Shown: positions 49,335 through 62,785, counted from the first letter of the stretch. The stretch is 64,000 bases of DNA from an uncultured Pseudomonadota bacterium (GCA_902798205.1 CADBVV010000004.1:21572-85571); one strand, 5' to 3'. Program-made: numbers and translations. The notes: generated from the sequence alone by a model not told the origin.

Positions 49335-49677
49335 TAAAACATCTTATACAACTGGATTATATTCTGAATTTCTGGCGCGTATGTATTTACGTCTTCACGG
49401 ATATCGCATATTGAAAAGCAGATATATAACCGGAAAAAACACCAATCGTGCAGAAATAGATATTATTGCCAAACATAAAAACACCGTTGTATTTGTTGAA
49501 GTAAAAGCGCGACAAAATATTCCTGCGGCGTGGGACGCCATAACGCCGACACAATCAGCGCGTCTTCGTCGTGCCGCAGAAACATATTTAATTAACAAAC
49601 ATTGGATGGGCGATGCCCGTTTTGATGTAATAGTTGTTTGTGGTCATAAAATATATTGGGCAAAAAATGCGATTTAG
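49324..49677 (+). CDS. YraN/UPF0102-family endonuclease-like protein
   Basis: EIDIIAKHKNTVVFVEVKAR and RFDVIVV match the YraN pattern. ATG at 49324. Confidence 0.5.
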   Translation: MLFNKTSYTTGLYSEFLARMYLRLHGYRILKSRYITGKNTNRAEIDIIAKHKNTVVFVEVKARQNIPAAWDAITPTQSARLRRAAETYLINKHWMGDARFDVIVVCGHKIYWAKNAI

Positions 49678-49934
49678 TTTTTTATAACCGCACTTTTAAT
49701 CAATGTCACATCTTCTTTGATACCATCGATTTTTAATTGTAATTGACCGATACCAGATTCTAATATTGTTGTTCTGTTTTCCAATGATGTTATTCGTTGA
49801 TCTTGGCGTTCTATTTCTGCCAAAGAAGAATCTTGTCGTGCAACCCAATAAATTAATCCTGCAATAAAAACTATCAAAAACCAACTGTCACGCAAAGCAT
49901 CCAAAAACGTAAATATATTTTGTTGTTTTGTCAT
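49674..49934 (-). CDS. small membrane protein with coiled-coil (phage-associated, function unknown)
   Basis: One TM segment (WFLIVFIAGLIYWV) followed by a heptad-like region. At the edge of the T7-like module. Confidence 0.35.
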   Translation of the reverse strand: MTKQQNIFTFLDALRDSWFLIVFIAGLIYWVARQDSSLAEIERQDQRITSLENRTTILESGIGQLQLKIDGIKEDVTLIKSAVIKN

Positions 49935-49964
49935 TATACTATTAATAATTTACCACAATGTTTA

Positions 49965-50165
49965 TTATGTTGGATTATTACCTCTTTTTATAAAATTTTC
50001 TATTTGATGCACTAATGCGACCTGGGCCGCCCACCAGCGCAAATCATTGTCGGATACATTTTGTCCCAACACACGTTCTGTTGTTATATTCCGCAAATGA
50101 TTTAACACTTGTTTCCCAGACGGTGTATTAAAAATTCGTGCATAATGTTTTTCTATATCGTTCAT
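49965..50165 (-). CDS. hypothetical phage-associated small protein (66 aa)
   Basis: ATG start, immediately downstream of the portal gene. Confidence 0.3.
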   Translation of the reverse strand: MNDIEKHYARIFNTPSGKQVLNHLRNITTERVLGQNVSDNDLRWWAAQVALVHQIENFIKRGNNPT

Positions 50166-50176
50166 TATGTTCCCTT

Positions 50177-51400
50177 TTATATTGCCATTTCTTCACGTGC
50201 CATTTGCGCAATCGGTGCAATGTATTTTAATTCTGCGTCACTGTGCAAAGATATTTTATCTATCAATCCACGACGTGATAATATTTGCAATCCCCTTTCG
50301 CACAAAGGTCTTATAAATTCGTGCAATAAACGACCATACGTTGCGCCCAATATGCGAACCATATCAGAATTACGCGCTAATATTTCTGTTGCTGTCATTT
50401 CTTTGTCAGAAAGCAACCCAAGTCTGTCCGCCAAAAGCGAATGACGTATTCTGTCACGTAAATCACGCAGAACAATTTGGGACACATCAAAATCAGAACC
50501 ACTTTGTAATGGTGTTAAACCAGATGACCCCACTGCCTTTGGTATAATTGCGCCAGGGGTTAAATTGATATTGGATAAATTTATAACACCGTCATCATCG
50601 GCCTGCCATATACCACTGACCGCGATTGTTGCGTTTTTCAAAACCAATTCGACAACTTTGTTTGCTGTTTTAATATCTGGCAAAGCACGCAATACAGGTC
50701 CCCGACCATACAATTCGCCACTGACCAAAGACCAACGGAATATAATATATGGATTTGTTTCAAATGTTCCACGCGCAACAATATTATTTTCAATGTCACC
50801 ACCAACATCAACCCATGCCGTAAAATCTTTACCAATCAAAGCCTGAACCAATCTTATCGGTGTTTGTGGATTATTTTTTATTGTATCACGCATATTTACC
50901 GGAAATACAAAATCAGGATATTTTTCAATTAAATCACATGCCGGCAACGAAGTTGTATGAAATACCATACCTGGCAATATCGCAATATCTTTCATTGGTA
51001 TCGCAGTGAACGAAAATGCAGAATCTGCACCTATTGGATTTTCTGCCATAAACAAACATGCCGTTCCAAGAACAACCAAATCAATATAACATTGATGCAC
51101 AGTTGTATAAAAATTAGAATCGTTTAAATGTGCACGCAACATTGATGTCGCGAAATCTGCATCTGGCGATAAATCACTTTCACGAACCAGATTTATCCAC
51201 AAAGATTCTGGTGGTGTCAACAAAGAATACATAGATGCCGCCAAATTATCAACAGCATCTGCGGCAGTCGCATCAAACAAAGTTGCAGATTCTGTATCGT
51301 CTGTTGGTATGGTATAACGCATCGCGTCTTTCCAACGTGGCAACCATATTTCCCTTTCGTCTAATGCGCGTTTATATAATTGCATAAGATTTTTTTGCAT
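50177..51400 (-). CDS. T7-like portal (head-to-tail connector, gp8 homologue)
   Basis: PYIIFRWSLVSGELYGRGPVLRALPDIK... aligns with T7 gp8 PYIPIRMVRLDGESYGRSYIEEYLGDLRSLE... Downstream blocks are also conserved. 407 aa, shorter than T7 gp8. Confidence 0.6.
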   Translation of the reverse strand: MQKNLMQLYKRALDEREIWLPRWKDAMRYTIPTDDTESATLFDATAADAVDNLAASMYSLLTPPESLWINLVRESDLSPDADFATSMLRAHLNDSNFYTTVHQCYIDLVVLGTACLFMAENPIGADSAFSFTAIPMKDIAILPGMVFHTTSLPACDLIEKYPDFVFPVNMRDTIKNNPQTPIRLVQALIGKDFTAWVDVGGDIENNIVARGTFETNPYIIFRWSLVSGELYGRGPVLRALPDIKTANKVVELVLKNATIAVSGIWQADDDGVINLSNINLTPGAIIPKAVGSSGLTPLQSGSDFDVSQIVLRDLRDRIRHSLLADRLGLLSDKEMTATEILARNSDMVRILGATYGRLLHEFIRPLCERGLQILSRRGLIDKISLHSDAELKYIAPIAQMAREEMAI

Positions 51401-51421
51401 TTTAATATTCCTTTTGTTTGG

Positions 51422-52264
51422 TTATATTTTAAATTCTGTATTTGCACGAATTTGTTTTAATATTCTGGCATCCGATCGGAAAGGACCGGGAACCATAGAC
51501 ACCGCCCCAGCAACAGCATCCAGCCCATCATCGTGTTCTTTTGAGCCCATCGGTGAAAAGGCCAACATTTCTGATAACAACATTGTTTGTTTTATCTTTT
51601 CATGCATATAAAGATGCCCCGTTGACAATAACGGTTCCAATGTATTTAAAATTCGTGTTTCTTTTTTTGTATGATTTGAAATTTGTGTGATATTTATTTG
51701 AATCTTGCGATTAAGTGCAACATTACGCATAATTTCTGGCAGCGCATTTCCAATACCATTTATTTCTATGCCTATTCTTGTTAAATGGTGTTGTTGCATA
51801 AAATTCAACACACAATCACATTGATTACTTAAAGGGTGCATATCATCATCATCAACCCGCATATACAAAATATCATGCACAAAAACATTTCTGTTTTTAT
51901 CATCACGATAAATAAGTGCACAAACACTGCCATCGCAATTTTGTTGTCCTGTTGATGGGTCCCAATAAAATGCACATCCTGTGATAATATTATCCCCGAT
52001 TCGATTGTTATAAATATCGTCTTCATAAAAATGAACCGCGCCTGGATCCAGGTGAATTCGTTCTTCTGAAACATATTCCAACATCATCTGCGCTGAAAAA
52101 TGTCGTGGACCAACGATATCTTCCATTTCGTGTATTTTTTCCAGCGGAAACATTTCTGGCCAGGCCGGATTTCCGGCGCTGTCCAGTATTGGTATTTTCA
52201 ATTGTTTATACCCATGTAAAAAAGGTATTGAATTCTGAAAATTTTCGTTTAATCTAATGGACAT
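51422..52264 (-). CDS. terminase large subunit, C-terminal (nuclease) part (T7 gp19 residues after the ATPase domain)
   Basis: [20 protein letters not shown] matches T7 [36 protein letters not shown] matches [26 protein letters not shown] matches ILVIDPSGRG. The first ATG (MSIRL) is at 52264; the ORF-track start at 52339 is a TTG. Confidence 0.6.
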   Translation of the reverse strand: [280 protein letters not shown]

Positions 52265-53810
52265 GGACTTTACTCCGAAAACTTTACCTACTAATTTAGA
52301 AGCCGAACAAGCTGTATTGGCCGCGGTATTGATGAACAACCGCGCTTTGGAATCTGTATCGGACTTTTTGTTACCAGAACACTTTTCGCATCCGGCACAC
52401 CAAGAAATTTATCGTCTTGCAATGCGTCAATTTGCTGTCGGGGTACCATTTGATATAATCACTGCCAAAACATACCTTGAACAACAGGGAACATTGGAAA
52501 GTGTTGGTGGTGTTGAATATTTATCTAAATTGGCATCTGCAGGATCTACCGTTGTTAATGTTGAACATTATGGACGTATTGTTTTTGATAATGCACGCCG
52601 TCGTGATTTAATCCACCTGGGACAAAGCATTATCGATGATGCATATACCGAAGATTTGGATAAAACGGTAAACGCCCAAATAGAATCTGCAGAACAACAA
52701 TTATTCAATCTGGCCTCAACCGGACAAAGCGAACATAACGTTGTATCGTTGGCCGATGCTTTGCAAAGCGCTTTACAAGAAGCCGCCATTGCATACAAAG
52801 CAGATGGTAAATTATCAGGTCTTACAACCGGACTGGATGATTTAGATAAATCAATCAGTGGTTTACATCATTCCGATTTAATTATTATTGCTGGTCGTCC
52901 AGGTATGGGTAAAACAACATTGGCAATGAATATTGCTTTCAATGCTGCAAACGCTATTTTAAACGGACGCGCAAATAATCAATACAAAGGCGCAGTTGCT
53001 TTCTTCAGTCTTGAAATGTCGTATTCACAATTGGCGGCACGCGTATTGTCTTCCCAATCAAAAATACCGGCATCACATATGCGCGATGGTAATTTGACAG
53101 ACGAAGATTTTACAAAAATGTCACAATACAGTGATGCATTATCAAAGGTTCCTGTGGTTATTGATGACACAGCAAATATGTCTGTGGCGGCAATAAAAAC
53201 ACGCGCACGTCGTATTGCACGTCAATTTAATGGTTTGGCATTGATTGTTATCGACTATTTACAGTTGATGACTTCACCTGGTGGAAAACACAGCGACAAC
53301 CGTGTCCAAGAATTATCTGAAATCACACGTGGATTAAAGATATTGGCCAAAGAAATGGATGTTCCTGTTATTGCATTGTCCCAATTATCACGAAGCGTTG
53401 AACAACGTGATGATAAAAGACCTGTGTTATCAGATTTGCGTGAATCTGGATCTATCGAACAAGATGCGGATATTGTTATGTTCACATACCGTGAAGAATA
53501 TTATCTTGAAGGACGTTCCCCGGATAAAAAATTATCTGGCACCGCATCTGAACAATCTATGCAAAATTGGCAAAAACGGTTGGACAATGTTCGTAACAAA
53601 GCAGATATTATTATCGCCAAGAACCGTCATGGTAAACCAGAAACTGTTCATTTAAGTTTCACCGGTGAATATTACCTGTTTGATAACCTTAATCAATATG
53701 GCGTTCAACCTTTCCCTGATACCAACATTGAACAACAATATACCGCCCCTGTTGACAATAACATACAAACAGTTGCCGATATTAATGATATTCCTGATGA
53801 TATGATTTAA
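52257..53810 (+). CDS. dnaB: replicative DNA helicase DnaB
   Basis: N-terminal LEAEQAVLAAVL, Walker A GRPGMGKTT, LIVIDYLQLM and SQLSRSVEQRDDKRPVLSDLRESGSIEQDAD motifs. 517 aa. Confidence 0.85.
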   Translation: MDMDFTPKTLPTNLEAEQAVLAAVLMNNRALESVSDFLLPEHFSHPAHQEIYRLAMRQFAVGVPFDIITAKTYLEQQGTLESVGGVEYLSKLASAGSTVVNVEHYGRIVFDNARRRDLIHLGQSIIDDAYTEDLDKTVNAQIESAEQQLFNLASTGQSEHNVVSLADALQSALQEAAIAYKADGKLSGLTTGLDDLDKSISGLHHSDLIIIAGRPGMGKTTLAMNIAFNAANAILNGRANNQYKGAVAFFSLEMSYSQLAARVLSSQSKIPASHMRDGNLTDEDFTKMSQYSDALSKVPVVIDDTANMSVAAIKTRARRIARQFNGLALIVIDYLQLMTSPGGKHSDNRVQELSEITRGLKILAKEMDVPVIALSQLSRSVEQRDDKRPVLSDLRESGSIEQDADIVMFTYREEYYLEGRSPDKKLSGTASEQSMQNWQKRLDNVRNKADIIIAKNRHGKPETVHLSFTGEYYLFDNLNQYGVQPFPDTNIEQQYTAPVDNNIQTVADINDIPDDMI

Positions 53811-53876
53811 TTTTTACTTGCCAAGTCTGTAAAAATTGACTAATATTTTGTCAACATGATATCAAGGAGTCAGATT

Positions 53877-54884
53877 ATGGCACAAGAAGAAATCATTTTT
53901 CCAAATAATATTCGCAATATTCGTGCAAGCAAGGGCCTGAAAATGACCGAATTGGCACGTCGTGCTAATTTATCACTTTCTGCTGTATCCAAAATTGAAA
54001 AAGGCGTTCGTCGTCTTAATCAAAAACAGTTATTAAATGTATGCACAATATTGGGTTGCAAATTGTCAGATATATTTATTCATGAATCTGATTCTGTTGC
54101 ACAAAATTGGCAAAATGAAATCAAACGCCGTTTAACTGACAACGAAGACAGCGGTTTAAAGATTTTCGGTTCTGGCCTTCGCAAGATTCGCCAACGCAGC
54201 GAAAAAACTATTGCCCAGGCTGCCAAGGCTGCAAAAATGACATTGTCCGTTTATCATAAAATCGAAGTCGGGCAACGCGAAGTTTATGAAAACGAAATTG
54301 AAACTTTGGCGCATGCTTTTGGATATACTGCGTCTGAAATGTTTGATGAAATCGCGAAACTTTACAAGGCTGGCGAATTAACAAAACAAATTAACAAAGT
54401 AAAAGAACGTGTTAAATCTGTTTTGGAACCGGTTAACCCAATGTCTGGTTTGGACGTTCATGGTGGTCTTTATGGTGCACAACTTTACGATAATGCACGT
54501 AAAAAATTGGTTCCTGTATTTGGGAAACCATCCGGAAAAAACATCCAATTGAAAAAATCTGACGAAACAATGATTGTTGCACCTGCTGCATTAGAAGGTC
54601 GCAACGGAATCTATGCTGTTATACCTAATTCCAAAAGATCTGGTGGATTTATACCAGAATCTTCATATGTTTTCGTAGATGCAACAGCTAAACCAAATGT
54701 TGGTGATTTGGCCGTATGCATAAACGAAGATTTCGCAAAATTATCATCCGATGATGTCGTTAACGCACAAATTGTTGTCGTACGTCAAGACAGTCATGGA
54801 AAAACCTTTGGCCATGTTTCTAACCCAGATGAAAAAGTCACAGGAAAAACATTGCACAAGGTTGTTATGATAGTTATGCAATAA
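53877..54884 (+). CDS. CI-like repressor: two HTH_XRE domains plus C-terminal S24 (LexA-like) peptidase-like domain
   Basis: Tandem HTH segments (LKMTELARRANLSLSAVSKIEKG; RSEKTIAQAAKAAKMTLSVYHKIEVG). C-terminal beta-rich domain. ATG at 53877 after AAGGAG. Confidence 0.5.
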   Translation: MAQEEIIFPNNIRNIRASKGLKMTELARRANLSLSAVSKIEKGVRRLNQKQLLNVCTILGCKLSDIFIHESDSVAQNWQNEIKRRLTDNEDSGLKIFGSGLRKIRQRSEKTIAQAAKAAKMTLSVYHKIEVGQREVYENEIETLAHAFGYTASEMFDEIAKLYKAGELTKQINKVKERVKSVLEPVNPMSGLDVHGGLYGAQLYDNARKKLVPVFGKPSGKNIQLKKSDETMIVAPAALEGRNGIYAVIPNSKRSGGFIPESSYVFVDATAKPNVGDLAVCINEDFAKLSSDDVVNAQIVVVRQDSHGKTFGHVSNPDEKVTGKTLHKVVMIVMQ

Positions 54885-54914
54885 TATGCATAAATCAGGG
54901 ACAGGAGAGATAAC

Positions 54915-55559
54915 ATGCAACAACAAGCTCATACAATCGCACAGCGTTTATTGAACCTTTACCGCCAGGCACACGTTATCGAAGGTGGCTGGACGGCTGT
55001 TAACAAGGTTTTCATTGCAGAATCAAACGATGCCCAGGTTATATCCGAATTGGAAAATATGCCGACTGGTAAAAAGCTTGTTGCACACATAAACAATCTT
55101 CGCAGTGGCAAAACACCTATGGATTCAATTGATAAAGATTTATTGCCATATGGTGGTTTAATGTCTTCTGATTCAAAATCAAATGCTTCTTTGACAGAAA
55201 ACGAAATCAATCAATTAAAATTGTTATTGGATGAATTCCAACCAACAACAGATAATCTTAATACAATCAAACAATTACCTTTTGTTCAAAAATTCGGCAA
55301 CGATTGGATTGACAGCATTGAATCTGCAATTGCATTTGATAAAGATATGATTTCCAAATGGAAAACTGTTGCACAAACAGACAAGGCTTATCGTATCTGG
55401 GACACTGCCAAGGAATTAGTATCTGAAACATTAACAGAACGCAATCGCGCACAAATCCAAGCAGACATGCCTGAATTCGAAACATATCTTCCTATGTTTG
55501 GCGATACAGGTAATGAAATGTTATCGAAACTTCGCACATTTATGTCATCGCTTGCATAA
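54915..55559 (+). CDS. hypothetical protein (214 aa)
   Basis: ATG with a GGAGAG Shine-Dalgarno. Its stop is 1 nt from the stop of the convergent terminase-N ORF. Confidence 0.4.
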   Translation: MQQQAHTIAQRLLNLYRQAHVIEGGWTAVNKVFIAESNDAQVISELENMPTGKKLVAHINNLRSGKTPMDSIDKDLLPYGGLMSSDSKSNASLTENEINQLKLLLDEFQPTTDNLNTIKQLPFVQKFGNDWIDSIESAIAFDKDMISKWKTVAQTDKAYRIWDTAKELVSETLTERNRAQIQADMPEFETYLPMFGDTGNEMLSKLRTFMSSLA

Positions 55560-56674: not shown

Positions 56675-56683
56675 TGATTCCCC

Positions 56684-57031
56684 CTATCCTGCTATTTTAT
56701 CGATATTGGCTAACCATGTTTTTAATATATTAGGTTTTTGAACTTTTAATTTTTTAATCTTATCGATGTTTTCTTGGTATTTTTCATCATACGGTTTTGC
56801 TGTTTCGGAACGCAGACGTTTAAGCACTGCATTTTCTGATAACCCAACACCAGTATTTCCAGACGCACCATATTTTGCACGTTGGGCAGACAAAACTTTC
56901 TTTATCAAATTTGTTTTTGTGGCTTCATCTTCTGCCATTTGTGCCAATATTTTTTGTCTTTGATTTTCTGCCGATTTTTTAGATTCTTGATAATCTAAAA
57001 CTTTTGTAACATCTGATACTAATTGTCCCAT
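56684..57031 (-). CDS. hypothetical virion-associated protein (115 aa)
   Basis: Position between the gp12-like and fibre genes. Coiled-coil-like. Confidence 0.3.
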   Translation of the reverse strand: MGQLVSDVTKVLDYQESKKSAENQRQKILAQMAEDEATKTNLIKKVLSAQRAKYGASGNTGVGLSENAVLKRLRSETAKPYDEKYQENIDKIKKLKVQKPNILKTWLANIDKIAG

Positions 57032-57046
57032 ATTTAAATCTCCTTA

Positions 57047-58759
57047 TTAAATTGAATACCATCCATCAACTGTGACAGACAATATGGTGGCGTTTAATTG
57101 TTCATCGCTGGACAACGTCCACAAAGGTTCTATTGTGTTAATTTGACATCCCAATAAATTAAGCGACAAATCACCGCTGTATCCCGGATTATCTGGTTCA
57201 TAAATATAATTAGGAATTTCAACACGATAATTATTTATGAATAAAGTCTTTGTGTTTATTACACGAACAGACATCTTGCGCGCCCGAACTTTCTTTGGAT
57301 TATGATTATTAACAATCATTGGCAACGCAGATATTTTATATGAAAAATTATATGCCTGACAATCATCCAAACAATCATCATCAAATTTTTCAAGATAAAA
57401 ATTATTCTGACGTTTAACCACGACATATGTTTTATTGTCAAAAACAGATACATATTTAAAACATCCGTCTGTAATGTATTTTCCCCACGCATTGATTTCT
57501 GTATTTGGGTGTTTATTCAAAACAGCCATATATCCATCATCCATCACAATAAATAATTGGTGTGTTGATTGATTAAACGCCAGGCTTACCGGCGTATTCA
57601 TTAAATGTTTAGACAACAAACACAAATCATTTGCATTATAATGTTGACTTAAATCATCTAAATCTAATTCACGCACATCTTTGCCTGATTGCGATATAAA
57701 GACGGTTGCGCCTTCTATCTGTTGTGGTGGCAAATAGACATCTGTTCGACTGCCAACCGATGTGTGTTGTTTAACATTTACATTTGATGGTGTTAATGGC
57801 GCGTTTAAAATCGCCCATTCACCAACAGAAGTTAATATTTGTAAATTTTCACTGCTGACTATCGTTGCTATCTGATGATGTTGCGAAGATAACAGTGTTA
57901 AAAATATTGCTTCGTCATCTAAACCCGTGCCGGCATCAAAGTTGGTATAATCGCCAACCTTTGACATCCATAAATTATTTGGCGCAGATTTTGTTCCGCC
58001 AAAAACCAATCTGTTTTGATGAAACGATACAGACATTGGCCAACCGCGCTTATTACTGAATGCCGCAACATACCAATCATAAAGTGCAGTCCCAGGAAAT
58101 GAAAAACTGCTGTTTGTATAAACTGTTACAGAACGCGCATTTTGAACAGATTGCACAATCCATTGAATATCATTAACCAACAATCTTTCGTTAACCCAAT
58201 CGTTTGACCAAAAATCTTTGTTGGTGGTAAAAACCGCGTGATTATTATCAATATCACTGTTAGATATAGTAATAGACACACCATCCATATCATCAAAACG
58301 CATAAATGGAATATTTACACTCATGTTTTGATTTACATGAAAATTGAATTGTTTTATATGAAAGCCGTCTGAATCTTTTGTAAATATCTGTGGTTTTAAA
58401 TCAGGATGCACAAAAAATATAGTATTAAATCTTTGTGCGTATTGTATTTGTTTTAAATTGATACCGTTCCATGAATTTGTAACAGATGTTATTTTTACAT
58501 CATTTTCATAAACATCTATGGTTTGGCCGTATATCACCAATAAATATTTTTCTGTTTCGCTGATTTTGAACGGCACCAATATCGCATCATTTGGTATTTG
58601 TGATATTTGTTTCAAACCAGATCTGCGCTTTAATCCACCAGATTGCAAAACATCCATATTTTCTAATACAGACAACCCATTAATACTGTTTGCGGCATAA
58701 AATTCTGGGGCAACTTCCCCAAAAGAAAACATATTTTGTGTTTTAAGAAAATTTCCCAT
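57047..58759 (-). CDS. T7-like tail tubular protein B (gp12 homologue, shortened)
   Basis: INGLSVLENMDVLQSGGLKRRSGL...EKYLLVIYGQTIDVYEN matches T7 gp12 VNGWSSETEGLQKRPPL...EQYYAVFTGSGIRVFDL. FHQNRLVFGGTKSAPNNLWMSKVGDYTNF matches FFRNRLGFLSGENIILSRTAKYFNF. Confidence 0.55.
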   Translation of the reverse strand: MGNFLKTQNMFSFGEVAPEFYAANSINGLSVLENMDVLQSGGLKRRSGLKQISQIPNDAILVPFKISETEKYLLVIYGQTIDVYENDVKITSVTNSWNGINLKQIQYAQRFNTIFFVHPDLKPQIFTKDSDGFHIKQFNFHVNQNMSVNIPFMRFDDMDGVSITISNSDIDNNHAVFTTNKDFWSNDWVNERLLVNDIQWIVQSVQNARSVTVYTNSSFSFPGTALYDWYVAAFSNKRGWPMSVSFHQNRLVFGGTKSAPNNLWMSKVGDYTNFDAGTGLDDEAIFLTLLSSQHHQIATIVSSENLQILTSVGEWAILNAPLTPSNVNVKQHTSVGSRTDVYLPPQQIEGATVFISQSGKDVRELDLDDLSQHYNANDLCLLSKHLMNTPVSLAFNQSTHQLFIVMDDGYMAVLNKHPNTEINAWGKYITDGCFKYVSVFDNKTYVVVKRQNNFYLEKFDDDCLDDCQAYNFSYKISALPMIVNNHNPKKVRARKMSVRVINTKTLFINNYRVEIPNYIYEPDNPGYSGDLSLNLLGCQINTIEPLWTLSSDEQLNATILSVTVDGWYSI

Positions 58760-58777
58760 ATAAAAACTCCTTGTATA

Positions 58778-59296
58778 TTAAAATCTGGAATCTATTAACG
58801 AAAAACTGCCGATATCAGATTGTTTTGTTGTCGTGCTGTCTATGAATTTTGCAGATTGATATTCTGATTCATACAAAGCCGTCATCATTTTAAATACATT
58901 GGCATCACCGATAAGCGGGATACAGAATTCCATTGCCAATTTCGTGGCCAATAATGTAGCAAAATATCCTGGGAACATTTCTGGTTCGGTTTTCACAACG
59001 GCCAATATTGTTATTGTATTACCTGCCGCTTTTATTTTATTGCCATTGATTTGACCATTACATTTTAAAATTCTTAATACTTCACTTGGAATTAAAAAAT
59101 CGTTGTCTTGGGTTTTATTCAAAACCAATGTTTTTGTGGCAAAACGCCATGGAAACAGCGACAACAAAGTGTCTACAGTTGGTTCAAACAAAGTTCTGGC
59201 CAATTGTGCACTGGCGCTGTCTTCACGCCAAGATTGAATTGGTTTTTCGCCCAATTTTAATAATGCCATTGAACATAAATCTATTTTTGTAAACAT
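58778..59296 (-). CDS. T7-like tail tubular protein A (gp11 homologue)
   Basis: MALLKLGEKPIQSWREDSASAQLARTLF...LSLFPWRFA matches T7 gp11 ILASIGEPPVSTLEGD..AANARRIL...QSRGWTFN. ATG at 59296 after AGGTG; the ORF-track start at 59302 is a GTG. Confidence 0.5.
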   Translation of the reverse strand: MFTKIDLCSMALLKLGEKPIQSWREDSASAQLARTLFEPTVDTLLSLFPWRFATKTLVLNKTQDNDFLIPSEVLRILKCNGQINGNKIKAAGNTITILAVVKTEPEMFPGYFATLLATKLAMEFCIPLIGDANVFKMMTALYESEYQSAKFIDSTTTKQSDIGSFSLIDSRF

Positions 59297-59366
59297 ATTC
59301 ACACCTATTTATTAAATAAAAAAATGGGGGACAAATATCCCCCAACAATATTCAACGAAAAAATTA

Positions 59367-59597
59367 TTAAGATAACGCACCAACAGTTACAACGCCTTCT
59401 GCAACTGTAATAACCTTTATCGCAGAACCATTTGAACCATTGATTAAAATGATATCGCCAGTGTTCATAAGATTTTTCAAACTGGAAAAATATCCAGATG
59501 CGGTTATTGTTGCCAATGTTACATTTTCTTTATAATGCCACAAAGTAAAACCGTTTGCGTATGCAATCACGGACAAGTTTTTATTTTGAAAAGCCAT
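59367..59597 (-). CDS. hypothetical small virion or decoration protein (76 aa)
   Basis: ATG with an AAAGGA Shine-Dalgarno. Beta-rich composition. Sits between the capsid and gp11-like genes. Confidence 0.3.
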   Translation of the reverse strand: MAFQNKNLSVIAYANGFTLWHYKENVTLATITASGYFSSLKNLMNTGDIILINGSNGSAIKVITVAEGVVTVGALS

Positions 59598-59619
59598 CTT
59601 TTTTCCTTTTGGTTATAAA

Positions 59620-60444
59620 TTATTGTGCGTCATCATCACATTTGATACGAACGATACCTTCGTTATCAATCAATACAGCACCTTGGGACATACTGTTGCT
59701 GATAAAGTGTGCAGCACGTTCACCATGCCATGTGATATCTGTTTTAACTTCTTGACCACATGCATGACCGATACTGGATGAATGATAAATAAAGCAATCA
59801 CGATCATCGTCAGTTAATGGCAAAGAATTACACAAAATCCAATTTACACCCAACCATTTACGTGATTCGCAACCATCAACCAAAGGTGTGGCACCACCAA
59901 CATAATCAGCAGAAACAAATTCATCCAACGCCAACAATTCGTTCCATTGATGTACACCAACAACAGCAAATCTGCGACCGTCATCTGGAACATCATTAGA
60001 ATTCAATTTTTCCAATGCGGCCATAATTAATGCTTTTGTTAAACCGGTTGAATAATCACCAACATATTGTGTTGCAGAATTCATTGCATTGATAATTAAT
60101 TCATCTGTTTTGCGACCCAATGCATATGCACCAGCAGAAGCAACAACGCGACGTTCATCAACATTTGTTTTTAATTCATCCAATGCATCAACCCAATCGC
60201 CCGCATAGTAATCTTGCAATGTACATTCAACAGGTGTGTGATTCAAATTCATCACAGGAACAATACCATGACGTGATTTTGTGCTGGCAATACCTTTGCC
60301 AACTTTTTGGAAAGTAGTAGAAGTCCCTACAACCCCAGATTTGCTGCGAATTGTAGAGCGTAATTTTGTGCCCATTTGCTGATAAGCCAAATGAACATCT
60401 GCTTCAAATTGTTTTACAAACACTTGATCTACAGACATAGACAT
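59620..60444 (-). CDS. T7-like major capsid protein (gp10 homologue, 274 aa)
   Basis: VFVKQFEADVHLAYQQMGTKLRSTIRSKSGVVGTSTTFQKVGKG matches the T7 gp10 pattern LFLKVFGGEVLTAFARTSVTTSRHMVRSISSGKSAQFPVLGR. AAAGGA Shine-Dalgarno. Confidence 0.55.
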   Translation of the reverse strand: MSMSVDQVFVKQFEADVHLAYQQMGTKLRSTIRSKSGVVGTSTTFQKVGKGIASTKSRHGIVPVMNLNHTPVECTLQDYYAGDWVDALDELKTNVDERRVVASAGAYALGRKTDELIINAMNSATQYVGDYSTGLTKALIMAALEKLNSNDVPDDGRRFAVVGVHQWNELLALDEFVSADYVGGATPLVDGCESRKWLGVNWILCNSLPLTDDDRDCFIYHSSSIGHACGQEVKTDITWHGERAAHFISNSMSQGAVLIDNEGIVRIKCDDDAQ

Positions 60445-60618
60445 AAGAAAATCCTTTTTGTTTAAATTAAAAGGCGCAATATGCGCAACTTGAAAATTTT
60501 TGATTTGTGGTTATGCGAAAACAATCGCGCCATAAATACAAAACACAAAAAAGGGTCCAAAAATGGATTATCCAATAAAAAATTCAGTTAGACATATGAT
60601 ATCTAACTGAAAAATTTA

Positions 60619-60652
60619 TCAAAAAAATCCCCAAAACCAGCGGTCTTGGGGA
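60619..60652 (-). terminator. intrinsic terminator downstream of the H1-like gene
   Basis: CCCCAA...TTGGGG stem followed by a T-run on the minus strand. Confidence 0.5.
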
Positions 60653-60689
60653 TAATATAAAAAATCACGCAAAATATTTGCGCAAAATC

Positions 60690-61010
60690 TTATTTTTTCT
60701 TAACTACTTTTTTAGCAGCTGGTTTTTTTGCAGGTGCTTTTTTAGCAACTACTTTTTTTGCAGCTGGTTTTTTAGCAGCAACTTTTTTTGCAGGTGCTTT
60801 TTTAGCAACTACTTTTTTAGCAGCAACTTTTTTTGCAGGTGCTTTTTTTGCAACTACTTTTTTTGCAACTGGTTTTTTAGCAGCAACTTTTTTTGCTACA
60901 GGTTTTTTTGCAGCTGGTTTTTTAGCAGCAACTTTTTTTGCAGGTGCTTTTTTTGCAGCTGGTTTTGCAGCTGGTTTTGCACATGCACATTTTTTCTTTA
61001 ATCCGAACAT
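60690..61010 (-). CDS. Lys/Ala-rich histone H1-like DNA-binding protein ([10 protein letters not shown] repeats)
   Basis: ATG at 61010 with an AAGGAGAG Shine-Dalgarno. Product [31 protein letters not shown]... The plus-strand ORF 60678..61001 is its antisense shadow. Confidence 0.7.
60703..60990. repeat. imperfect tandem repeats (15- and 30-bp units) encoding the AKKxA repeats
   Basis: Visible periodicity of ...gcagctggttttttagcagcaactttttttgcaggtgcttttttagcaactac... units. Confidence 0.8.
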
Positions 61011-61106
61011 GTTTCTCTCCTTATAAAGTTTTGGACAGAACAAAATTATTTTGTTCTTAATTATATTTTATATGAATCAAAACAAATAGTAAAGAATAAA
61101 AATTAT

Positions 61107-61763
61107 TTATGAATATAATTTTTTAAATCCATTTTCAATTTTACGAACATATTCTGGATCTTGATCACGCCAATATTTTGGATCGCGCATCATATTACGC
61201 AACATATCATCAGATAAATTTTCTGTTGCATTTTTATCGGTTAAAACAGTTGGTTCAAAAGATTGCATCATCTTGTACACGCCTTGTATTCCCTGGGGTG
61301 TAGAGCACAACTCTTCGAATGCAGATGCGGGCAAATATTTTTCACCGAATGATTTTATTTCACGCATTGCATCATTCATTTTTTCATCACCACCAAAAAA
61401 ATTTTTTAATTCATTAATTGCATTTGTTTGATTTTGTAATTCAAATAAATTTTTTAATGTTGGTTGTAAAAATTCTTCAGCGATTGAATAAATTTGTTCA
61501 ACTTGTTTTGATGTTAAACCAATTTCATGAAATTTATTGCGAACCGATTCGTCATCAAACAAATCATTTGTTGGATATTCAGATGCATTTTCTGGAACAC
61601 CAATTGCATGATTAAATTTTTGTTTTGCATTTTCATCACTGTCATCATTTGGCACAGATATCATATTGCTCATTTTCTTTTCTAATTCACAATATGATTT
61701 TATTAATGCAGATGTATTTAATTCGCCTTTGTCATCAAGAAATTTTTCCGGAACGTTTTCCAT
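61107..61763 (-). CDS. acidic protein, possible capsid scaffolding protein (positional analogy to T7 gp9)
   Basis: Asp/Glu-rich helical protein upstream of the capsid gene. AAAGGA Shine-Dalgarno. No sequence motif. Confidence 0.3.
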   Translation of the reverse strand: MENVPEKFLDDKGELNTSALIKSYCELEKKMSNMISVPNDDSDENAKQKFNHAIGVPENASEYPTNDLFDDESVRNKFHEIGLTSKQVEQIYSIAEEFLQPTLKNLFELQNQTNAINELKNFFGGDEKMNDAMREIKSFGEKYLPASAFEELCSTPQGIQGVYKMMQSFEPTVLTDKNATENLSDDMLRNMMRDPKYWRDQDPEYVRKIENGFKKLYS

Positions 61764-61953
61764 TTGTTTTTCCTTTGGTTGAAGATTCTTGTTTAAGAAA
61801 ATAAATTCCCGATAAAGTAAATATTGTTTGCATCATTGTAAAAATATCTTCATCGCCTATTAAATAAGCCCCAACGGCAGATATAATACCGACACTTGAC
61901 ACAACATAAGTTTTTTTATCTTGTAAATATCCGCCTTTGATTATTTTATTCAT
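61735..61953 (-). CDS. holin-like protein (two TMDs plus basic C-terminal tail)
   Basis: ATG at 61953 with an AAAGGA Shine-Dalgarno. TM segments TYVVSSVGIISAVGAYLIG and IFTMMQTIFTLSGIYFL. Tail KGKTNGKRSGKIS. Immediately downstream of the lysin. Confidence 0.35.
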   Translation of the reverse strand: MNKIIKGGYLQDKKTYVVSSVGIISAVGAYLIGDEDIFTMMQTIFTLSGIYFLKQESSTKGKTNGKRSGKIS

Positions 61954-61967
61954 CGCATATCCTTTAT

Positions 61968-62378
61968 TTATAAATAAAACAAAATATCTTCGCATTCTGA
62001 TATATATCCACGTGCCATTGCCCATTGTGGAATAACATTTGCATGATGAAATTTTGTTGCACCGAATACAGTATCTTGTAAATTACCACGCATCATTGTT
62101 TGAACGACACGCAAACACATTTGGAATTTTCTGTCATTTGCAGCAACATTTAAATTTTTATTACGTGATGATTTTGAATTTAAACATTCAAATAAATCAT
62201 CATCTTTTGCAATAGATTCAAAAGATTTATCATATTTAATATGAATATTGTTAATCATCGAAGCCATTGCTTCCACTATTTGCAAAGACAAAGCATCTGT
62301 TTCTGCAAATATTATACGTGCCAATTTATATGATACGATTTGTGTATCATCGTTATTTGTTATTAAATTTAACTGCAT
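61968..62378 (-). CDS. SleB/CwlJ-family cell-wall hydrolase (endolysin)
   Basis: ARIIFAE...QIVEAMASMINNI...FECLN...DTVFGATKFHHANVIPQWA matches Hydrolase_2 conserved blocks. First ATG at 62378; the ORF-track start at 62432 is a TTG. Confidence 0.5.
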   Translation of the reverse strand: MQLNLITNNDDTQIVSYKLARIIFAETDALSLQIVEAMASMINNIHIKYDKSFESIAKDDDLFECLNSKSSRNKNLNVAANDRKFQMCLRVVQTMMRGNLQDTVFGATKFHHANVIPQWAMARGYISECEDILFYL

Positions 62379-62785
62379 GTTCAAGACCTGTTTTTTTGTT
62401 AAAAAAAAGCCCGCACAAAAAAGTGCAGGCAAAAATAAAGAATAAAAAAAGCCGCAATATTGCGGGCAAAATTTCTATTCTTGATGTGTTATATAATATC
62501 ACAAATTGACATAAAAGTCAAGGGCATATTACGACACTTTTAAATTTATTACTTTATTTTTCTATATAAATGTGCCAAAATCACATTGTCAGCAAGAGTT
62601 TTGCTGATGGGACTAGAAACCCATATAGCTTCGTCTGGAATGACGTTAAAATCTCCAACCTAATGTGGTTGGAGGGTCGCGAATATATAGAATAAGCGCG
62701 CAATTTAAGCTAAATTGTTTCTAGCCTCCAACCGCCCGATTTTTCTCTGGCGGTTCTTTTTGGTTTACGTCGGGGGAAAGATCAA

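What the first reader, a model, noticed from the sequence alone, without database searches (positions are those of the whole stretch)
49674..62432. Reduced T7-like podophage module lacking RNAP, DNAP and internal core proteins, possibly a domesticated particle
Recognisable homologues of T7 gp8, gp10, gp11, gp12, the gp17 N-domain, gp19, holin and lysin are present in a circularly permuted T7 order, densely packed on one strand. There is no phage RNA polymerase, DNA polymerase, gp13-16 ejectosome or receptor-binding fibre domain. The lysin is SleB-type, as in alphaproteobacterial phages and gene transfer agents. Such a minimal head-plus-stub-tail set could be a decaying prophage, or a co-opted particle such as a GTA-like or tailocin-like system built from a podovirus, which is rarely described.
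Basis: partly seen in the sequence, partly recalled or inferred. Interest (0 to 1): 0.65.

Follow-up and report, generated by a model that had tools for sequence, protein, structure and literature searches.

The report
Domesticated T7-like particle genes, split terminase
A stripped-down set of T7-like phage head, tail and lysis genes has been kept intact at the same chromosomal spot in hundreds of tiny-genome gut bacteria (Candidatus Enterousia), with the DNA-packaging enzyme gene cut in two by the cell's own replication helicase gene, which points to a new, phage-derived particle system that the bacteria use themselves.

Summary
The T7-like module is real (49674-62432) but it is not all on one strand. 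The large-terminase gene is cleanly bisected, and three opposite-strand genes sit in the gap: the cellular replicative helicase dnaB, a double-HTH regulator and an unknown 214-aa protein. The host is Ca. Enterousia (Alphaproteobacteria, order Rs-D84; genomes under 1 Mb).

A capsid relative occurs in 507 species-representative genomes. In the 80 best loci gene order is identical and the locus is fixed downstream of lipB, with yraN at the other end where that flank is visible. ORFs are intact (2 true stops in about 1,500 gene copies). Every gene has dN/dS of 0.06-0.21 at near-saturated dS, and the module co-diverges with host genes. The head genes evolve more slowly than dnaB.

There is no integrase, polymerase or large core protein, and no identifiable small terminase. 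The fibre is a 178-aa stub, deleted in about a third of species. More distant relatives share the same terminase breakpoint with different inserts, one with ftsZ between terC and portal. Acetobacteraceae carry an unsplit ~13-kb sister cluster.

Simple decay and an intact prophage are excluded. The best reading is an anciently domesticated, GTA-like podovirus-derived particle system with a two-chain terminase. Particle production and DNA transfer are inferred, not shown. I found no prior description.

The parts
61968..62378 (-). Endolysin, SleB/Hydrolase_2-type. The ORF as listed runs to 62432; the likely true start is Met19 at 62378.
   Evidence: PF07486 E=1.8e-4, below cutoff. phrog_938 endolysin 4.8e-8. 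Stops in orthologues fall at query positions 7-18, so the real start is downstream. dN/dS 0.21.
61735..61953 (-). Holin-like small membrane protein (72 aa from MNKIIKGG; two hydrophobic segments and a basic C-terminus)
   Evidence: Sequence. No family hit. Conserved in 68 loci, dN/dS 0.18. Function inferred from position and composition.
61107..61763 (-). Scaffolding protein (T7 gp9-like)
   Evidence: PF05396 E=3.7e-9. Conserved in 69 loci, dN/dS 0.18.
60690..61010 (-). Lysine-rich (34-40% K) AKKP-pentapeptide-repeat, histone-H1/Hc2-like protein with a variable repeat number
   Evidence: PF07382 6.6e-15 and NF038052 5.6e-15, both below cutoff. A 15-nt tandem repeat of 17 copies. A K-rich ORF of 60-156 aa at this position in 69 of 69 loci.
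60445..60689 (-). Conserved structured leader of the capsid gene: GC-rich terminators (60685-60665, 60653-60627), a conserved hairpin plus U-run (60611-60583), a small GGAU/AUCC hairpin (60574-60564) and a three-helix element (~60544-60498)
   Evidence: hairpin plus T-run in 75 of 75 loci; 96% paired; 12 compensatory pairs; 0 of 500 shuffles reach this. The two longer motifs (the hairpin stem and the GGCGC...GCATAACCA block) each occur only once in the window; TGGATAATCCA also occurs exactly at 47197-47207, no more often than chance.
59620..60444 (-). Major capsid protein (274 aa)
   Evidence: PF19821 2.5e-73 and phrog_3437 2.6e-73. 82-98% identical across the 80 loci; dN/dS 0.059.
59367..59597 (-). 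76-aa conserved head-operon protein (phrog_18004), also found after the capsid gene in related phages
   Evidence: dN/dS 0.10.
59325..59344 (-). Terminator-like hairpin after capsid-o76
   Evidence: A hairpin plus T-run at this position in 67 of 79 loci.
58778..59302 (-). Tubular tail protein A (T7 gp11-like)
   Evidence: phrog_394 7e-33. dN/dS 0.16.
57047..58759 (-). Tubular tail protein B / nozzle (T7 gp12-like, 570 aa)
   Evidence: phrog_376 3e-80. dN/dS 0.19.
56684..57031 (-). 115-aa relic internal virion protein, the only gene left in the gp13-16 slot
   Evidence: Homologous to the Acetobacteraceae 146-aa post-gp12 gene (HHalign probability 87%, E=4e-6). 5 of 19 family members hit phrog_418 'internal virion protein'. 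dN/dS 0.17.
56138..56674 (-). Tail-fibre stub: gp17 N-terminal (tail-attachment) domain only, 178 aa, no receptor-binding domain
   Evidence: phrog_1640 6e-13; PF03906 5.5e-4. Cleanly deleted in 28 of 75 loci. dN/dS 0.16 where present.
55561..56160 (-). TerN: N-terminal piece of the large terminase (Walker A GKST, Walker B IICDDVEV, GTPH motif), ending at a stop codon
   Evidence: phrog_38 positions 275-459, 3e-43. Aligns to residues 33-212 of the terminase large subunit in PDB 8dgc. Motifs invariant against unsplit relatives. dN/dS 0.087.
54915..55559 (+). o214: conserved all-helical protein of unknown function, the last gene of the insert. Its stop codon is 1 nt from the terN stop.
   Evidence: No Pfam, PHROG, NCBIfam or PADLOC hit. 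AF2 pLDDT 80 with no fold match. 1,174 homologues, the 120 best listed all 71-100% identical. dN/dS 0.17.
53856..54884 (+). Double XRE-type HTH regulator with an uncharacterised C-terminal domain (342 aa)
   Evidence: PF01381 2.4e-17, two HTH stretches. Conserved in 73 loci, dN/dS 0.11.
52257..53810 (+). dnaB, the cellular replicative DNA helicase
   Evidence: NF006606 617.6 bits (cutoff 540); TIGR00665 507 (cutoff 385); below the phage_DnaB cutoff (413 < 498). dN/dS 0.093.
51422..52264 (-). TerC: C-terminal piece of the large terminase (rest of the ATPase plus the RNase-H-like nuclease), with its own ATG and Shine-Dalgarno embedded in the first codons of dnaB
   Evidence: phrog_38 positions 481-713, 4.6e-38; PF22530. 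ATG conserved in 73 of 73 loci with GGAG/GGGG 8 nt upstream. Nuclease motifs invariant. dN/dS 0.17.
50177..51400 (-). Portal protein (T7 gp8-like, 407 aa)
   Evidence: PF12236 2e-79. dN/dS 0.063.
49965..50165 (-). Bbp19-like small phage protein
   Evidence: PF25181 2.7e-6. Follows the portal gene in related phage contigs as well.
49674..49934 (-). 86-aa protein with an N-terminal TM segment and a coiled coil (spanin-like by inference)
   Evidence: Sequence. Conserved in 68 loci, dN/dS 0.10. No family hit.

Best explanation
This is an anciently domesticated, vertically inherited set of T7-like podovirus virion and lysis genes, fixed in the chromosome of Ca. Enterousia (order Rs-D84). Most likely it still builds DNA-filled, short-tailed particles for the cell's own use, making it a gene-transfer-agent-like 'viriform' of podovirus origin.

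SHOWN: the cluster encodes scaffold, capsid, portal, tail tube A and B, one small internal-virion-protein relic, a fibre stub, a T7-type large terminase, a holin-like protein and a lysin, plus a lysine-rich histone-like protein. It lacks integrase, polymerases, large core proteins, an identifiable small terminase and a receptor-binding domain. It sits at the same locus in every genome examined. All genes are intact and under purifying selection as strong as, or stronger than, that on host genes. The terminase gene is cut after the GTPH motif, in a variable loop. Both pieces keep every catalytic motif, and TerC has its own conserved start codon and ribosome-binding site.

INFERRED: TerN and TerC assemble into a two-chain terminase. 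Without a small terminase to confer specificity, it would package whatever DNA is available into scaffold-built capsids on the portal. The gp11/gp12 tube closes the head, and holin plus lysin release the particles by lysing a sub-population. With no gp15/gp16-type channel and little or no fibre, any delivered DNA would reach at most the recipient's periplasm and would depend on host uptake functions. The insulated, structured capsid leader and the post-capsid terminator set high capsid stoichiometry. terC-portal lies downstream of an antisense dnaB-HTH-o214 block with no terminator in between. Late transcription may therefore run antisense through dnaB and the regulator, coupling particle production to shut-off of replication. 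That last step is speculative.
For: Gene identities. Host identity and tiny genomes: (PMC12306168). 507 species-representative genomes carry a capsid relative, and the best 80 loci have identical gene order including the split. ORF integrity: only 2 true internal stops. dN/dS 0.059-0.21 at dS around 0.6-1.3, against host dnaB 0.093 and yraN 0.16. Fixed locus: o81-o139-lipB immediately upstream of the lysin in 64-66 of 68 loci, and yraN downstream where visible. Co-divergence with host flank: Spearman 0.55-0.60, against 0.50 for dnaB; mean aa divergence is head 0.20, dnaB 0.24, host flank 0.33. No integrase or replication genes within +/-10 kb or in the window. GC is like the host's. Terminase: the fused halves align colinearly as one piece with unsplit T7-like TerL, the break maps to about residue 212 of the terminase large subunit in PDB 8dgc, all motifs are invariant against unsplit relatives, and the terC ATG plus SD are conserved in 73 of 73 loci. 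Antiquity: the same breakpoint occurs in L169 (TerC 36% identical, different insert, ftsZ and murJ between terC and portal) and in L099/L170. Sister unsplit ~13-kb cluster in Acetobacteraceae, with capsid 78-96% identical across genera and the same neighbour gene. The chromosomal clusters form one capsid clade apart from phage-sized contigs (77% bootstrap; Enterousia 100%). Conserved terminators and a structured capsid leader. Precedent for podovirus-like GTA-like elements in gut bacteria: FpGTA (PMC12946183).
Against: There is no direct evidence that particles are made, that DNA is packaged, or that DNA is transferred; everything functional is inferred from conservation. No two-chain large terminase has been shown to work: I found no paper using the phrases 'split terminase', 'interrupted terminase' or similar, which is a narrow phrase search. 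No small terminase is identifiable, and T7 packaging normally needs gp18. The fibre is a stub or absent and no receptor-binding protein is in the cluster, so adsorption to recipients is unexplained. The large ejection proteins are missing. Whole genomes could not be scanned, so missing parts (TerS, fibres) might be encoded elsewhere, or might not exist. All sequences are from MAGs or metagenomes. Some relatives show erosion: no portal follows terC in L099 or L170, and Siccirubricoccus lacks portal and terL gene calls.
Confidence: 0.6

Rival explanations
1. Domesticated, but not for gene transfer. The particle or some of its parts would serve another host function: programmed lysis with release of DNA or nutrients as a public good, a decoy or interference device against related infecting podophages, or an export vehicle. 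In this reading DNA delivery to recipient cells plays no role.
For: The same conservation evidence applies as for the main explanation. The fibre stub is dispensable, being deleted in 28 of 75 loci, and no receptor-binding domain or large ejection proteins are present. This is awkward for a delivery device. The host is a metabolically dependent organism with a genome under 1 Mb.
Against: Terminase, portal, scaffold and tail tube are all under strong constraint. That makes sense only if DNA is packaged and retained in a closed head. There is no match to known defence systems. L169 carries an M15 peptidoglycan peptidase between gp11 and gp12, which suggests action on a target cell wall.
Confidence: 0.25
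2. A still-mobile element: a minimal temperate podophage or phage satellite of about 12.7 kb. It would spread horizontally, borrow replication (its 'own' dnaB) and missing virion parts from the host or a helper phage, and merely look fixed.
For: Related sequences are listed in IMG/VR as viral contigs. An HTH regulator lies inside the element. The cluster length (~12-13 kb) is similar in two lineages. The fecal 'Bacteriophage sp.' contig L082 is the sister of the Enterousia capsids.
Against: There are no integrase, excisionase, att repeats or replication initiator. The flanks are the same in nearly all genomes. Divergence tracks the host genes. dnaB meets the curated cellular-equivalog cutoffs and fails the phage-type one. 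In L169 host essentials (ftsZ, murJ) lie between terC and portal, which is incompatible with a packaged unit. The IMG/VR entries are fragments of the same chromosomal arrangement.
Confidence: 0.07
3. A defective prophage in slow decay. It would be retained only because the essential dnaB gene and its promoter are embedded in it, so the DNA cannot be deleted.
For: terL is interrupted, the fibre is truncated or lost, and the core genes and small terminase are missing. dnaB overlaps terC head-to-head, so its promoter must lie inside terC. Some distant relatives do show erosion.
Against: Linkage to dnaB cannot keep about 17 separate ORFs open and at dN/dS of 0.06-0.21 across about 80 species at saturated dS. 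Genes 6-10 kb from dnaB (capsid, scaffold, lysin) are as constrained as those next to it. The capsid evolves more slowly than dnaB itself. These genomes are under 1 Mb and about 90% coding, so junk is not tolerated. The catalytic motifs of both terminase pieces are invariant.
Confidence: 0.03
4. The split terminase is rejoined. In particle-producing cells the 3.3-kb dnaB cassette would be excised by site-specific recombination, as with the sigK 'skin' element. That would restore an intact terL and at the same time remove the helicase gene from the doomed cell.
For: The insert is bounded exactly by the two terminase pieces with no loss of residues. The idea would explain why an essential replication gene sits there. 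o214 is of unknown function.
Against: No direct or inverted repeats sit at the junctions. No recombinase is in or near the insert, and the o214 model has no significant match to any solved structure, recombinases included. terN ends in a conserved stop, and terC has a conserved ATG plus SD in 73 of 73 loci. L169 has the same breakpoint with a same-strand insert of different content.
Confidence: 0.05

Closest known systems
RcGTA-type gene transfer agents (Rhodogtaviriformidae) of Alphaproteobacteria
   Same: A chromosomal cluster of about 13-15 kb holding only head, tail, packaging and lysis-related genes. No integrase or replication genes. Vertically inherited with the host, with slow-evolving capsid genes and alphaproteobacterial hosts. 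The RcGTA small terminase lacks DNA-binding specificity, and here no small terminase is identifiable (PMC9662315; my own knowledge for TerS).
   Different: RcGTA derives from an HK97-type siphovirus with a long tail, whereas this cluster is T7-like with a gp11/gp12 stub tail. There is no detectable sequence relationship. RcGTA's TerL is one polypeptide. RcGTA function (random 4-kb DNA, transfer, CtrA/GafA control) is proven experimentally; nothing here is.
[quoted passage not shown]
   Same: A gut bacterium. A compact operon (10.5 kb) with TerS-like protein, TerL, portal, scaffold and major capsid, plus lysis genes. Near-ubiquitous in the genus, with short-tailed-phage ancestry.
   Different: The host is a Firmicute. 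FpGTA has two separate loci, including a baseplate, fibre and RBP set. Particles (~40 nm, 8.4-8.9 kb DNA) are shown experimentally. Its terminase is not split, and it is not reported as T7-type. The cluster here is alphaproteobacterial, T7-type, and has host essential genes embedded in it.
T7-like pelagiphages and marine podophages (e.g. Pelagibacter phage EXVC031P, 34 kb; Vibrio podophages ~32 kb)
   Same: Homologous capsid (44% and ~33% identity), portal, o76, gp11, gp12 and fibre N-domain. The local order capsid-o76-gp11-gp12 is the same, and Bbp19-like genes sit near the portal.
   Different: These phages are 22-34 kb. The pelagiphage has three large genes (159, 783 and 1,247 aa) between gp12 and the fibre, a full-length fibre and an early/replication module. 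None of those is present here.
Unsplit ~13-kb T7-like cluster of Acetobacteraceae (Roseomonas, Teichococcus, Muricoccus, Humitalea and others), found here
   Same: The same reduced gene set: portal, scaffold, capsid, gp11, gp12, small internal-virion-protein relic, fibre, T7-type TerL and SleB-type lysin. It is chromosomal with the same neighbour gene across genera, and the capsid is 78-96% conserved across genera. The capsids are 58% identical to those of Enterousia and fall in the same clade.
   Different: Canonical T7 order (8-9-10-11-12-17-19). TerL is a single 472-480-aa protein preceded by a gene of about 100 aa in the TerS position. The fibre is full-length (760 aa) with a pectate-lyase-like domain. 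A divergent S24-type repressor is present. There is no dnaB insert and no lysine-rich gene.
Capsid-forming PICIs and other phage satellites
   Same: A small (10-15 kb) chromosomal element that encodes its own capsid, portal and terminase but not a full phage (my own knowledge).
   Different: Satellites carry an integrase and replication genes, sit at variable sites, are patchily distributed and depend on helper-phage tails. This cluster has none of the mobility genes, has its own tail tube, is fixed at one locus and co-diverges with the host.

Membership tests
Gene transfer agent / viriform (criteria as in PMC9662315) | A Caudoviricetes-derived structural gene cluster resident in the cellular chromosome | tested here: met
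   Profile hits for portal, capsid, scaffold, tail tube and TerL. The cluster is flanked by host genes on contigs up to 958 kb.
Gene transfer agent / viriform (criteria as in PMC9662315) | Evolves in concert with the host: vertical inheritance, purifying selection, short capsid branches | tested here: met
   Fixed locus, co-divergence, dN/dS 0.06-0.21, and head genes that evolve more slowly than host genes.
Gene transfer agent / viriform (criteria as in PMC9662315) | Cannot propagate itself: no replication, integration or excision functions of its own | tested here: met
   None in the 64-kb window or in the +/-10 kb flanks of relatives. The only replication gene is the cellular dnaB. Whole genomes could not be scanned.
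Gene transfer agent / viriform (criteria as in PMC9662315) | Particles package mostly random host DNA, less than would be needed to carry all the GTA genes | not testable with these tools
   This needs VLP DNA sequencing or particle purification.
Gene transfer agent / viriform (criteria as in PMC9662315) | Particles deliver DNA to recipient cells | not testable with these tools
   This needs culture or transfer assays. The absence of a receptor-binding domain and of large ejection proteins leaves the matter open.
Autographivirales / T7-like phage (as a virus) | Single-subunit phage RNA polymerase | tested here: not met
   No such gene in the window or flanks.
Autographivirales / T7-like phage (as a virus) | T7-type virion module: gp8 portal, gp9 scaffold, gp10 capsid, gp11/gp12 tail tube, gp17 N-domain, gp19 TerL | tested here: met
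Autographivirales / T7-like phage (as a virus) | Internal core / ejectosome proteins gp14-gp15-gp16 | tested here: not met
   Only a 115-aa relic whose family hits phrog_418 'internal virion protein'. There are no large core genes, whereas the related pelagiphage has three large genes (159, 783 and 1,247 aa) between gp12 and the fibre.
Intact or inducible prophage | Integrase with att sites, a lysogeny switch, a replication module and a complete virion gene set | tested here: not met
   No integrase or att repeats. No replication module. terL is split and the fibre truncated.
Tailocin (phage-tail-like bacteriocin) | A tail-only particle: no capsid, portal or terminase genes | tested here: not met
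   Capsid, portal, scaffold and terminase are present and are among the most constrained genes in the cluster: capsid, portal and TerN have the lowest dN/dS.
Phage satellite (PICI / cf-PICI) | Integrase, a replication/primase module, helper dependence, and variable, patchy integration | tested here: not met
   No mobility or replication genes. A single conserved locus.

The most novel reading that the evidence does not exclude
This is a further, independent lineage of gene transfer agents, the first derived from a T7-like podovirus. It would have arisen early in Alphaproteobacteria and now be shared by the reduced-genome gut order Rs-D84 and by Acetobacteraceae. In Rs-D84 it would work with a naturally split, two-chain large terminase whose gene harbours the cell's replicative helicase. 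Late transcription of the particle genes would then run antisense through dnaB and its regulator, tying the commitment to particle production and lysis to the shut-down of chromosome replication.
Probability: 0.3. Interest if true: 0.9.

Novelty: new variant of a known kind. Interest (0 to 1): 0.8.

Why it matters
If these particles are made, this would be, as far as I could find, the first GTA-like system of T7-like ancestry. Together with its Acetobacteraceae sister cluster it would extend domesticated phage particles to alphaproteobacterial groups for which I found none described in the literature searched here.

It sits in bacteria with genomes under 1 Mb that have discarded most biosynthesis yet keep about 1.4% of their DNA for this cluster. 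That argues for a strong benefit, such as gene exchange or repair in small, isolated symbiont populations.

The cleanly bisected terminase has stayed functional-looking across lineages whose TerC proteins are now only 36% identical. It is a natural experiment showing where a viral packaging motor tolerates being split into two chains.

Essential host genes (dnaB, and in a relative ftsZ and murJ) lie interleaved with virion genes. That is an unusually deep integration of viral and cellular genomes and suggests regulatory coupling that can be tested with strand-specific RNA-seq.

The hypothesis is directly testable with existing rumen and faecal VLP metagenomes.

Tried and rejected
1. att sites, target-site duplications or inverted repeats at the module ends or around the 3.3-kb insert: none found. 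The only real repeat is the 15-nt array inside the K-rich gene.

2. An intein or protein splicing to rejoin TerL: terN has no extra ~100-aa extension, and terC has only 10-35 novel residues. Rejected.

3. Programmed excision of the dnaB cassette: no repeats, no recombinase, and a conserved stop plus ATG/SD. Unlikely.

4. Homology between the window's HTH regulator and the Acetobacteraceae S24 repressor: no BLAST similarity. PDB sequence hits cover the HTH domains only.

6. The o115 family profile against PDB sequences: nothing. Only PHROG scans of individual members gave the internal-virion-protein link.

7. A small-terminase candidate: the Acetobacteraceae pre-terL gene has no HHalign match to any small Enterousia ORF.

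8. Known defence systems: no PADLOC hits beyond generic HTH.

9. Rfam: nothing at gathering score in the module, and only a weak sRNA-Xcc1-like hit outside it. Nothing in the L169 gap.

10. The sigma-70 promoter scan is not above chance (59 found against 62 expected), so promoter assignments are not claimed.

11. Of the conserved capsid-leader motifs, the hairpin stem and the GGCGC...GCATAACCA block do not recur elsewhere in the window, and TGGATAATCCA recurs only once (47197-47207), at chance level, so they are not a repeated operator.

12. Literature: no paper links Enterousia or Rs-D84 to phage-like particles. No paper contains 'split terminase' phrases. The PhiGT1 podovirus-history paper concerns other lineages.

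13. Technical: one bootstrap script timed out, and one structure string was mis-registered and then redone.

Full report
OBSERVATION. The reported region does contain a T7-like virion gene set, with scores far beyond chance. These are portal (PF12236, E=2e-79), major capsid (PF19821, 2.5e-73), scaffold (PF05396, 3.7e-9), tubular tail B (phrog_376, 3e-80), tubular tail A (phrog_394, 7e-33), a 178-aa protein that matches only the N-terminal tail-attachment domain of T7-type fibres (phrog_1640, 6e-13), a T7-type large terminase (phrog_38), a weak SleB/Hydrolase_2 lysin and a two-TM holin-like ORF. The description 'densely packed on one strand' is wrong. Coordinates 52257-55559 are on the plus strand and interrupt the terminase gene.

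Upstream of the module lie ordinary Gram-negative housekeeping genes (frr, uppS, cdsA, rseP, bamA). The rest of the window holds host genes plus an unrelated low-GC island, with no phage RNA polymerase, DNA polymerase or core proteins. GC content of the module matches the host's.

ANATOMY, on the minus strand from 62378 down to 49674:
- lysin, holin-like protein and scaffold
- a lysine-rich AKKP-repeat histone-H1-like protein
- a 245-nt structured leader
- capsid and a 76-aa protein
- a terminator
- gp11-like and gp12-like tail tube proteins
- a 115-aa protein and the fibre stub
- TerN
- on the plus strand: dnaB, a double-HTH regulator and o214
- TerC, portal, a Bbp19-like protein and an 86-aa TM/coiled-coil protein

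The 115-aa protein is homologous to the gene at the same position in the Acetobacteraceae sister cluster (HHalign probability 87%, E=4e-6). Five of 19 family members hit phrog_418 'internal virion protein'. The gp13-16 slot is therefore reduced to one small relic and is not completely empty.

THE SPLIT TERMINASE. TerN matches phrog_38 positions 275-459 and TerC matches positions 481-713. The concatenated halves align as a single colinear piece (residues 23-472) with unsplit terminases of T7-like phages. TerN aligns to residues 33-212 of the terminase large subunit in PDB 8dgc. Against unsplit relatives, TerN ends at GTPHTQNTIYKTE and TerC resumes at IPFLHGYKQLKIPIL, across a loop of variable length with no conserved residue lost. 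Walker A (GKST), Walker B (IICDDVEV), GTPH and the nuclease motifs WDP, DGSV, E-NGIG and DDGLDA are all invariant.

The terC Met26 ATG (52264-52262, minus strand) overlaps the dnaB ATG (52257) head-to-head and is preceded by GGAG at 8 nt. That ATG is present in 73 of 73 related loci with a GGAG/GGGG motif, although the stretch is also constrained as dnaB codons. The terN stop and the o214 stop are 1 nt apart. No repeats flank the insert.

THE INSERT. The helicase passes the curated cellular equivalog models (NF006606, 617.6 bits against a cutoff of 540; TIGR00665, 507 against 385) and fails the phage_DnaB model (413 < 498). By those criteria it is the cell's replicative helicase. The 342-aa protein has two XRE-type HTH domains. 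o214 has no family or fold match.

DISTRIBUTION AND SELECTION. The capsid has 4,407 homologues, and the top 120 are 82-98% identical. A scan of one genome per species found 507 genomes encoding a relative. The best 80 are Ca. Enterousia or uncultured alphaproteobacterial MAGs from ruminant, horse, rabbit and other guts, on contigs up to 688 kb. One 958-kb contig also carries the cluster. Enterousia belongs to order Rs-D84, with genomes of 0.75-1.0 Mb and about 90% coding density (PMC12306168). That paper does not mention phage, capsid or gene transfer.

All 80 loci show the same gene order and orientation, including the dnaB-HTH-o214 block between terN and terC. Among roughly 1,500 gene copies only two carry a genuine internal stop (portal in L020, HTH in L066). 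Other apparent stops fall in my over-extended ORF termini.

Nei-Gojobori dN/dS among the closer 35 loci:
- capsid 0.059, portal 0.063, terN 0.087
- o76 0.10, o86 0.10, HTH 0.11
- fibre stub 0.16, gp11 0.16
- terC 0.17, o115 0.17, o214 0.17
- scaffold 0.18, holin-like 0.18, gp12 0.19, lysin 0.21
- host genes for comparison: dnaB 0.093, yraN 0.16
These values hold at dS of about 0.6-1.3.

The o81-o139-lipB genes lie immediately upstream of the lysin in 64-66 of 68 loci, and yraN follows o86 wherever the flank is visible. Pairwise divergence of head, tail and terminase genes correlates with divergence of flanking host genes (Spearman 0.55-0.60) as well as dnaB does (0.50). The head genes diverge less (0.20) than dnaB (0.24) or the host flank (0.33). 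The fibre stub is cleanly deleted in 28 of 75 loci. The lysine-rich gene is present in 69 of 69 loci with a variable repeat number.

WIDER FAMILY. Searching TerC against 1.84 billion cluster representatives returned many stand-alone proteins of about 270-300 aa. They begin at the same junction but are only 31-54% identical, and they appear alongside unsplit forms of about 450-560 aa.

One such locus, L169 (GC 29%; capsid 73% and TerC 36% identical), has the same layout and the same breakpoint: terN ends ...GTPHTKYTIYRV and terC starts MFNDENQAFLKGF. Its insert is different (non-coding DNA plus a methyltransferase-like gene on the same strand). It has an M15 peptidase between gp11 and gp12. Its portal lies about 10 kb away, behind murJ and ftsZ. 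In L099/L170 the insert holds dnaB plus an 834-aa gene, and a pilin-like gene, not the portal, follows terC. The split is therefore old and has outlived turnover of the inserted DNA.

IMG/VR relatives fall into three tiers. The first is Enterousia-type fragments. The second is a high-GC group (capsid 53-61% identical) with canonical order portal-scaffold-capsid-gp11-gp12-fibre-unsplit terL in about 12-13 kb. The third is phage-sized contigs of 22-33 kb (<=51% identical).

The high-GC group belongs to Acetobacteraceae. There the capsid is 78-96% identical across many genera and lies in complete 3.7-6.5-Mb chromosomes. The ~13-kb cluster has the order S24 repressor | three small genes | portal | scaffold | capsid | gp11 | gp12 | 146-aa gene | 760-aa fibre | ~100-aa gene | terL | ~120-aa gene | lysin. 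It sits next to the same DUF952 gene in three genera. The Siccirubricoccus copy appears eroded, judging from gene calls only.

In a neighbour-joining capsid tree Enterousia is monophyletic (100%). Its sister is a 5-kb human-faecal 'Bacteriophage sp.' contig with canonical order (96%). All the chromosomal reduced clusters group apart from the phage contigs (77%). In the nearest complete phage, Pelagibacter phage EXVC031P (capsid 44% identical), three large genes (159, 783 and 1,247 aa) follow gp12, and there is a full-length fibre and an early module. These are the parts missing here.

REGULATORY FEATURES. Terminator-like hairpins follow the lysine-rich gene and follow o76. They are conserved in 75 of 75 and 67 of 79 loci respectively.

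The capsid leader contains an 11-bp hairpin of conserved sequence plus a U-run, a small GGAU/AUCC hairpin and a three-helix element. Overall 96% of cells pair, against 88% in shuffles. Twelve pairs show compensatory changes, with 0 of 500 shuffles reaching that number. The covariation score is 0.28, against <=0.083 for slid partners. One caveat is that the structure was derived from the same alignment.

No terminator separates terN from the antisense insert. The promoter scan is uninformative.

MECHANISM.
- Shown: the gene content, the integrity of the genes, the constraint on them, the fixed position, co-divergence with the host, a clean terminase break with retained motifs, and separate translation signals.
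- Inferred: a regulated sub-population expresses the cluster. Scaffold, capsid and portal form procapsids, with capsid over-expressed from its insulated unit. TerN and TerC associate as a two-chain motor and, lacking a specificity subunit, fill heads with cellular DNA, perhaps condensed or marked by the lysine-rich protein. gp11 and gp12 close the head. Holin-like protein, lysin and the spanin-like protein lyse the cell.
- Also inferred: with one small internal protein and little or no fibre, delivery would at best reach a recipient's periplasm and rely on host uptake.
- Speculative: transcription from terN may run antisense through o214-HTH-dnaB to reach terC-portal, linking particle production to replication shut-off.

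RIVALS. Simple decay is excluded by ORF integrity and dN/dS. A mobile phage or satellite is excluded by the fixed locus, host-congruent divergence, the absence of mobility genes, and ftsZ and murJ lying inside the L169 version. A non-transfer function for the particles remains plausible (0.25) because adsorption and ejection parts are missing. Programmed excision to heal terL is unlikely.

COMPARISON AND NOVELTY. The recognised GTA families RcGTA, BaGTA and BhGTA arose by independent exaptations and are unrelated to T7-like phages; long non-contractile tails are reported for the BaGTA-type particles of B. grahamii (PMC9662315), and the siphovirus-like RcGTA tail is my own knowledge. [quoted passage not shown]

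I found no description of this cluster, of the Acetobacteraceae sister cluster, or of a naturally split large terminase in the searchable literature. That library is incomplete, so absence there is not proof of novelty. I classify the finding as a new variant of a known kind (domesticated phage particle / GTA-like element), with unusual architecture.

LIMITS. All functional statements are inferences. Whole genomes could not be scanned. The data come from MAGs, although the same arrangement in 80 independent assemblies argues against assembly artefacts.

Noticed in passing
window 30700-41010: A separate low-GC (28-32%) island. It holds a reverse-transcriptase-domain protein (31483-32955, minus), a 720-aa protein with about 15 ankyrin repeats (33157-35319) and two large serine recombinases (37883-39316, 39347-40846). 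It ends at tRNA-His/tRNA-Ala (40835-41008). It looks like an integrative element unrelated to the T7-like module. The ankyrin protein hints at a eukaryote-associated lifestyle.
   Followed up: partly
window 28988-30109: A HipA-family toxin kinase gene (HipA_C plus Couple_hipA) in a genome under 1 Mb.
   Followed up: no
window 62667-63532: A 248-aa secreted protein with a Listeria-Bacteroides repeat (62786-63532, plus strand) lies upstream of the lysin, where other species have lipB about 100-150 nt away. Related copies (38-39% identical) occur only in this sub-lineage (L004, L005, L022). A weak sRNA-Xcc1-like match (34.9 bits, below the gathering score of 53) lies just upstream at 62667-62741.
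   Followed up: partly
window 60445-60689 (minus strand): The capsid 5' leader is a conserved structured RNA: a hairpin plus U-run at 60611-60583 and a three-helix element at about 60544-60498, with 12 compensatory base pairs across 17 species. There is no Rfam match. It may be a terminator/antiterminator or a processing site.
   Followed up: yes
window 60690-61010: A lysine-rich AKKP-repeat gene encoded by a 15-nt tandem array whose copy number varies between species (proteins of 60-156 aa). In the distant relative L169 the K-rich region is fused to a C-terminal multi-TM domain (297 aa).
   Followed up: partly
L169:8563-9977 and L169:10886-20876: In this GC-29% relative the terminase gap holds about 480 nt of non-coding DNA with two strong promoter-like sites (no Rfam hit) plus a methyltransferase-like gene. 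murJ, a CDP-alcohol phosphatidyltransferase and ftsZ lie between terC and the portal gene.
   Followed up: partly
L166:5570-19230, L168:5679-18576, L167: A ~13-kb unsplit sister cluster in Acetobacteraceae chromosomes, next to a DUF952 gene in three genera, with a divergent S24 repressor. The Siccirubricoccus deserti copy lacks portal and terL gene calls and has gp12 split, which suggests lineage-specific decay.
   Followed up: partly
L083:6479-6724 (outside the window; upstream of lipB in 64 of 68 loci): An 81-aa protein, 77-96% conserved (apart from one weak 49% hit in L061), with a weak, below-cutoff Cro/C1-type HTH match, on the same strand just upstream of o139-lipB-lysin. It is a possible small regulator of the cluster.
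   Followed up: no
L099:10850-11317 and L170:1091-1561: In one divergent Rs-D84 lineage a pilin-like (Bundlin-like) gene, not the portal gene, directly follows terC. A T2SSE/PilB-like ATPase is also conserved a few kb upstream of the cluster in Enterousia (L083:4461-5420). This may be relevant to DNA uptake, but that is speculative.
   Followed up: no
window 744-2141, 5284-7446, 14275-15492: Three large ORFs (465, 720 and 405 aa) with no Pfam match at E<=1e-5.
   Followed up: no
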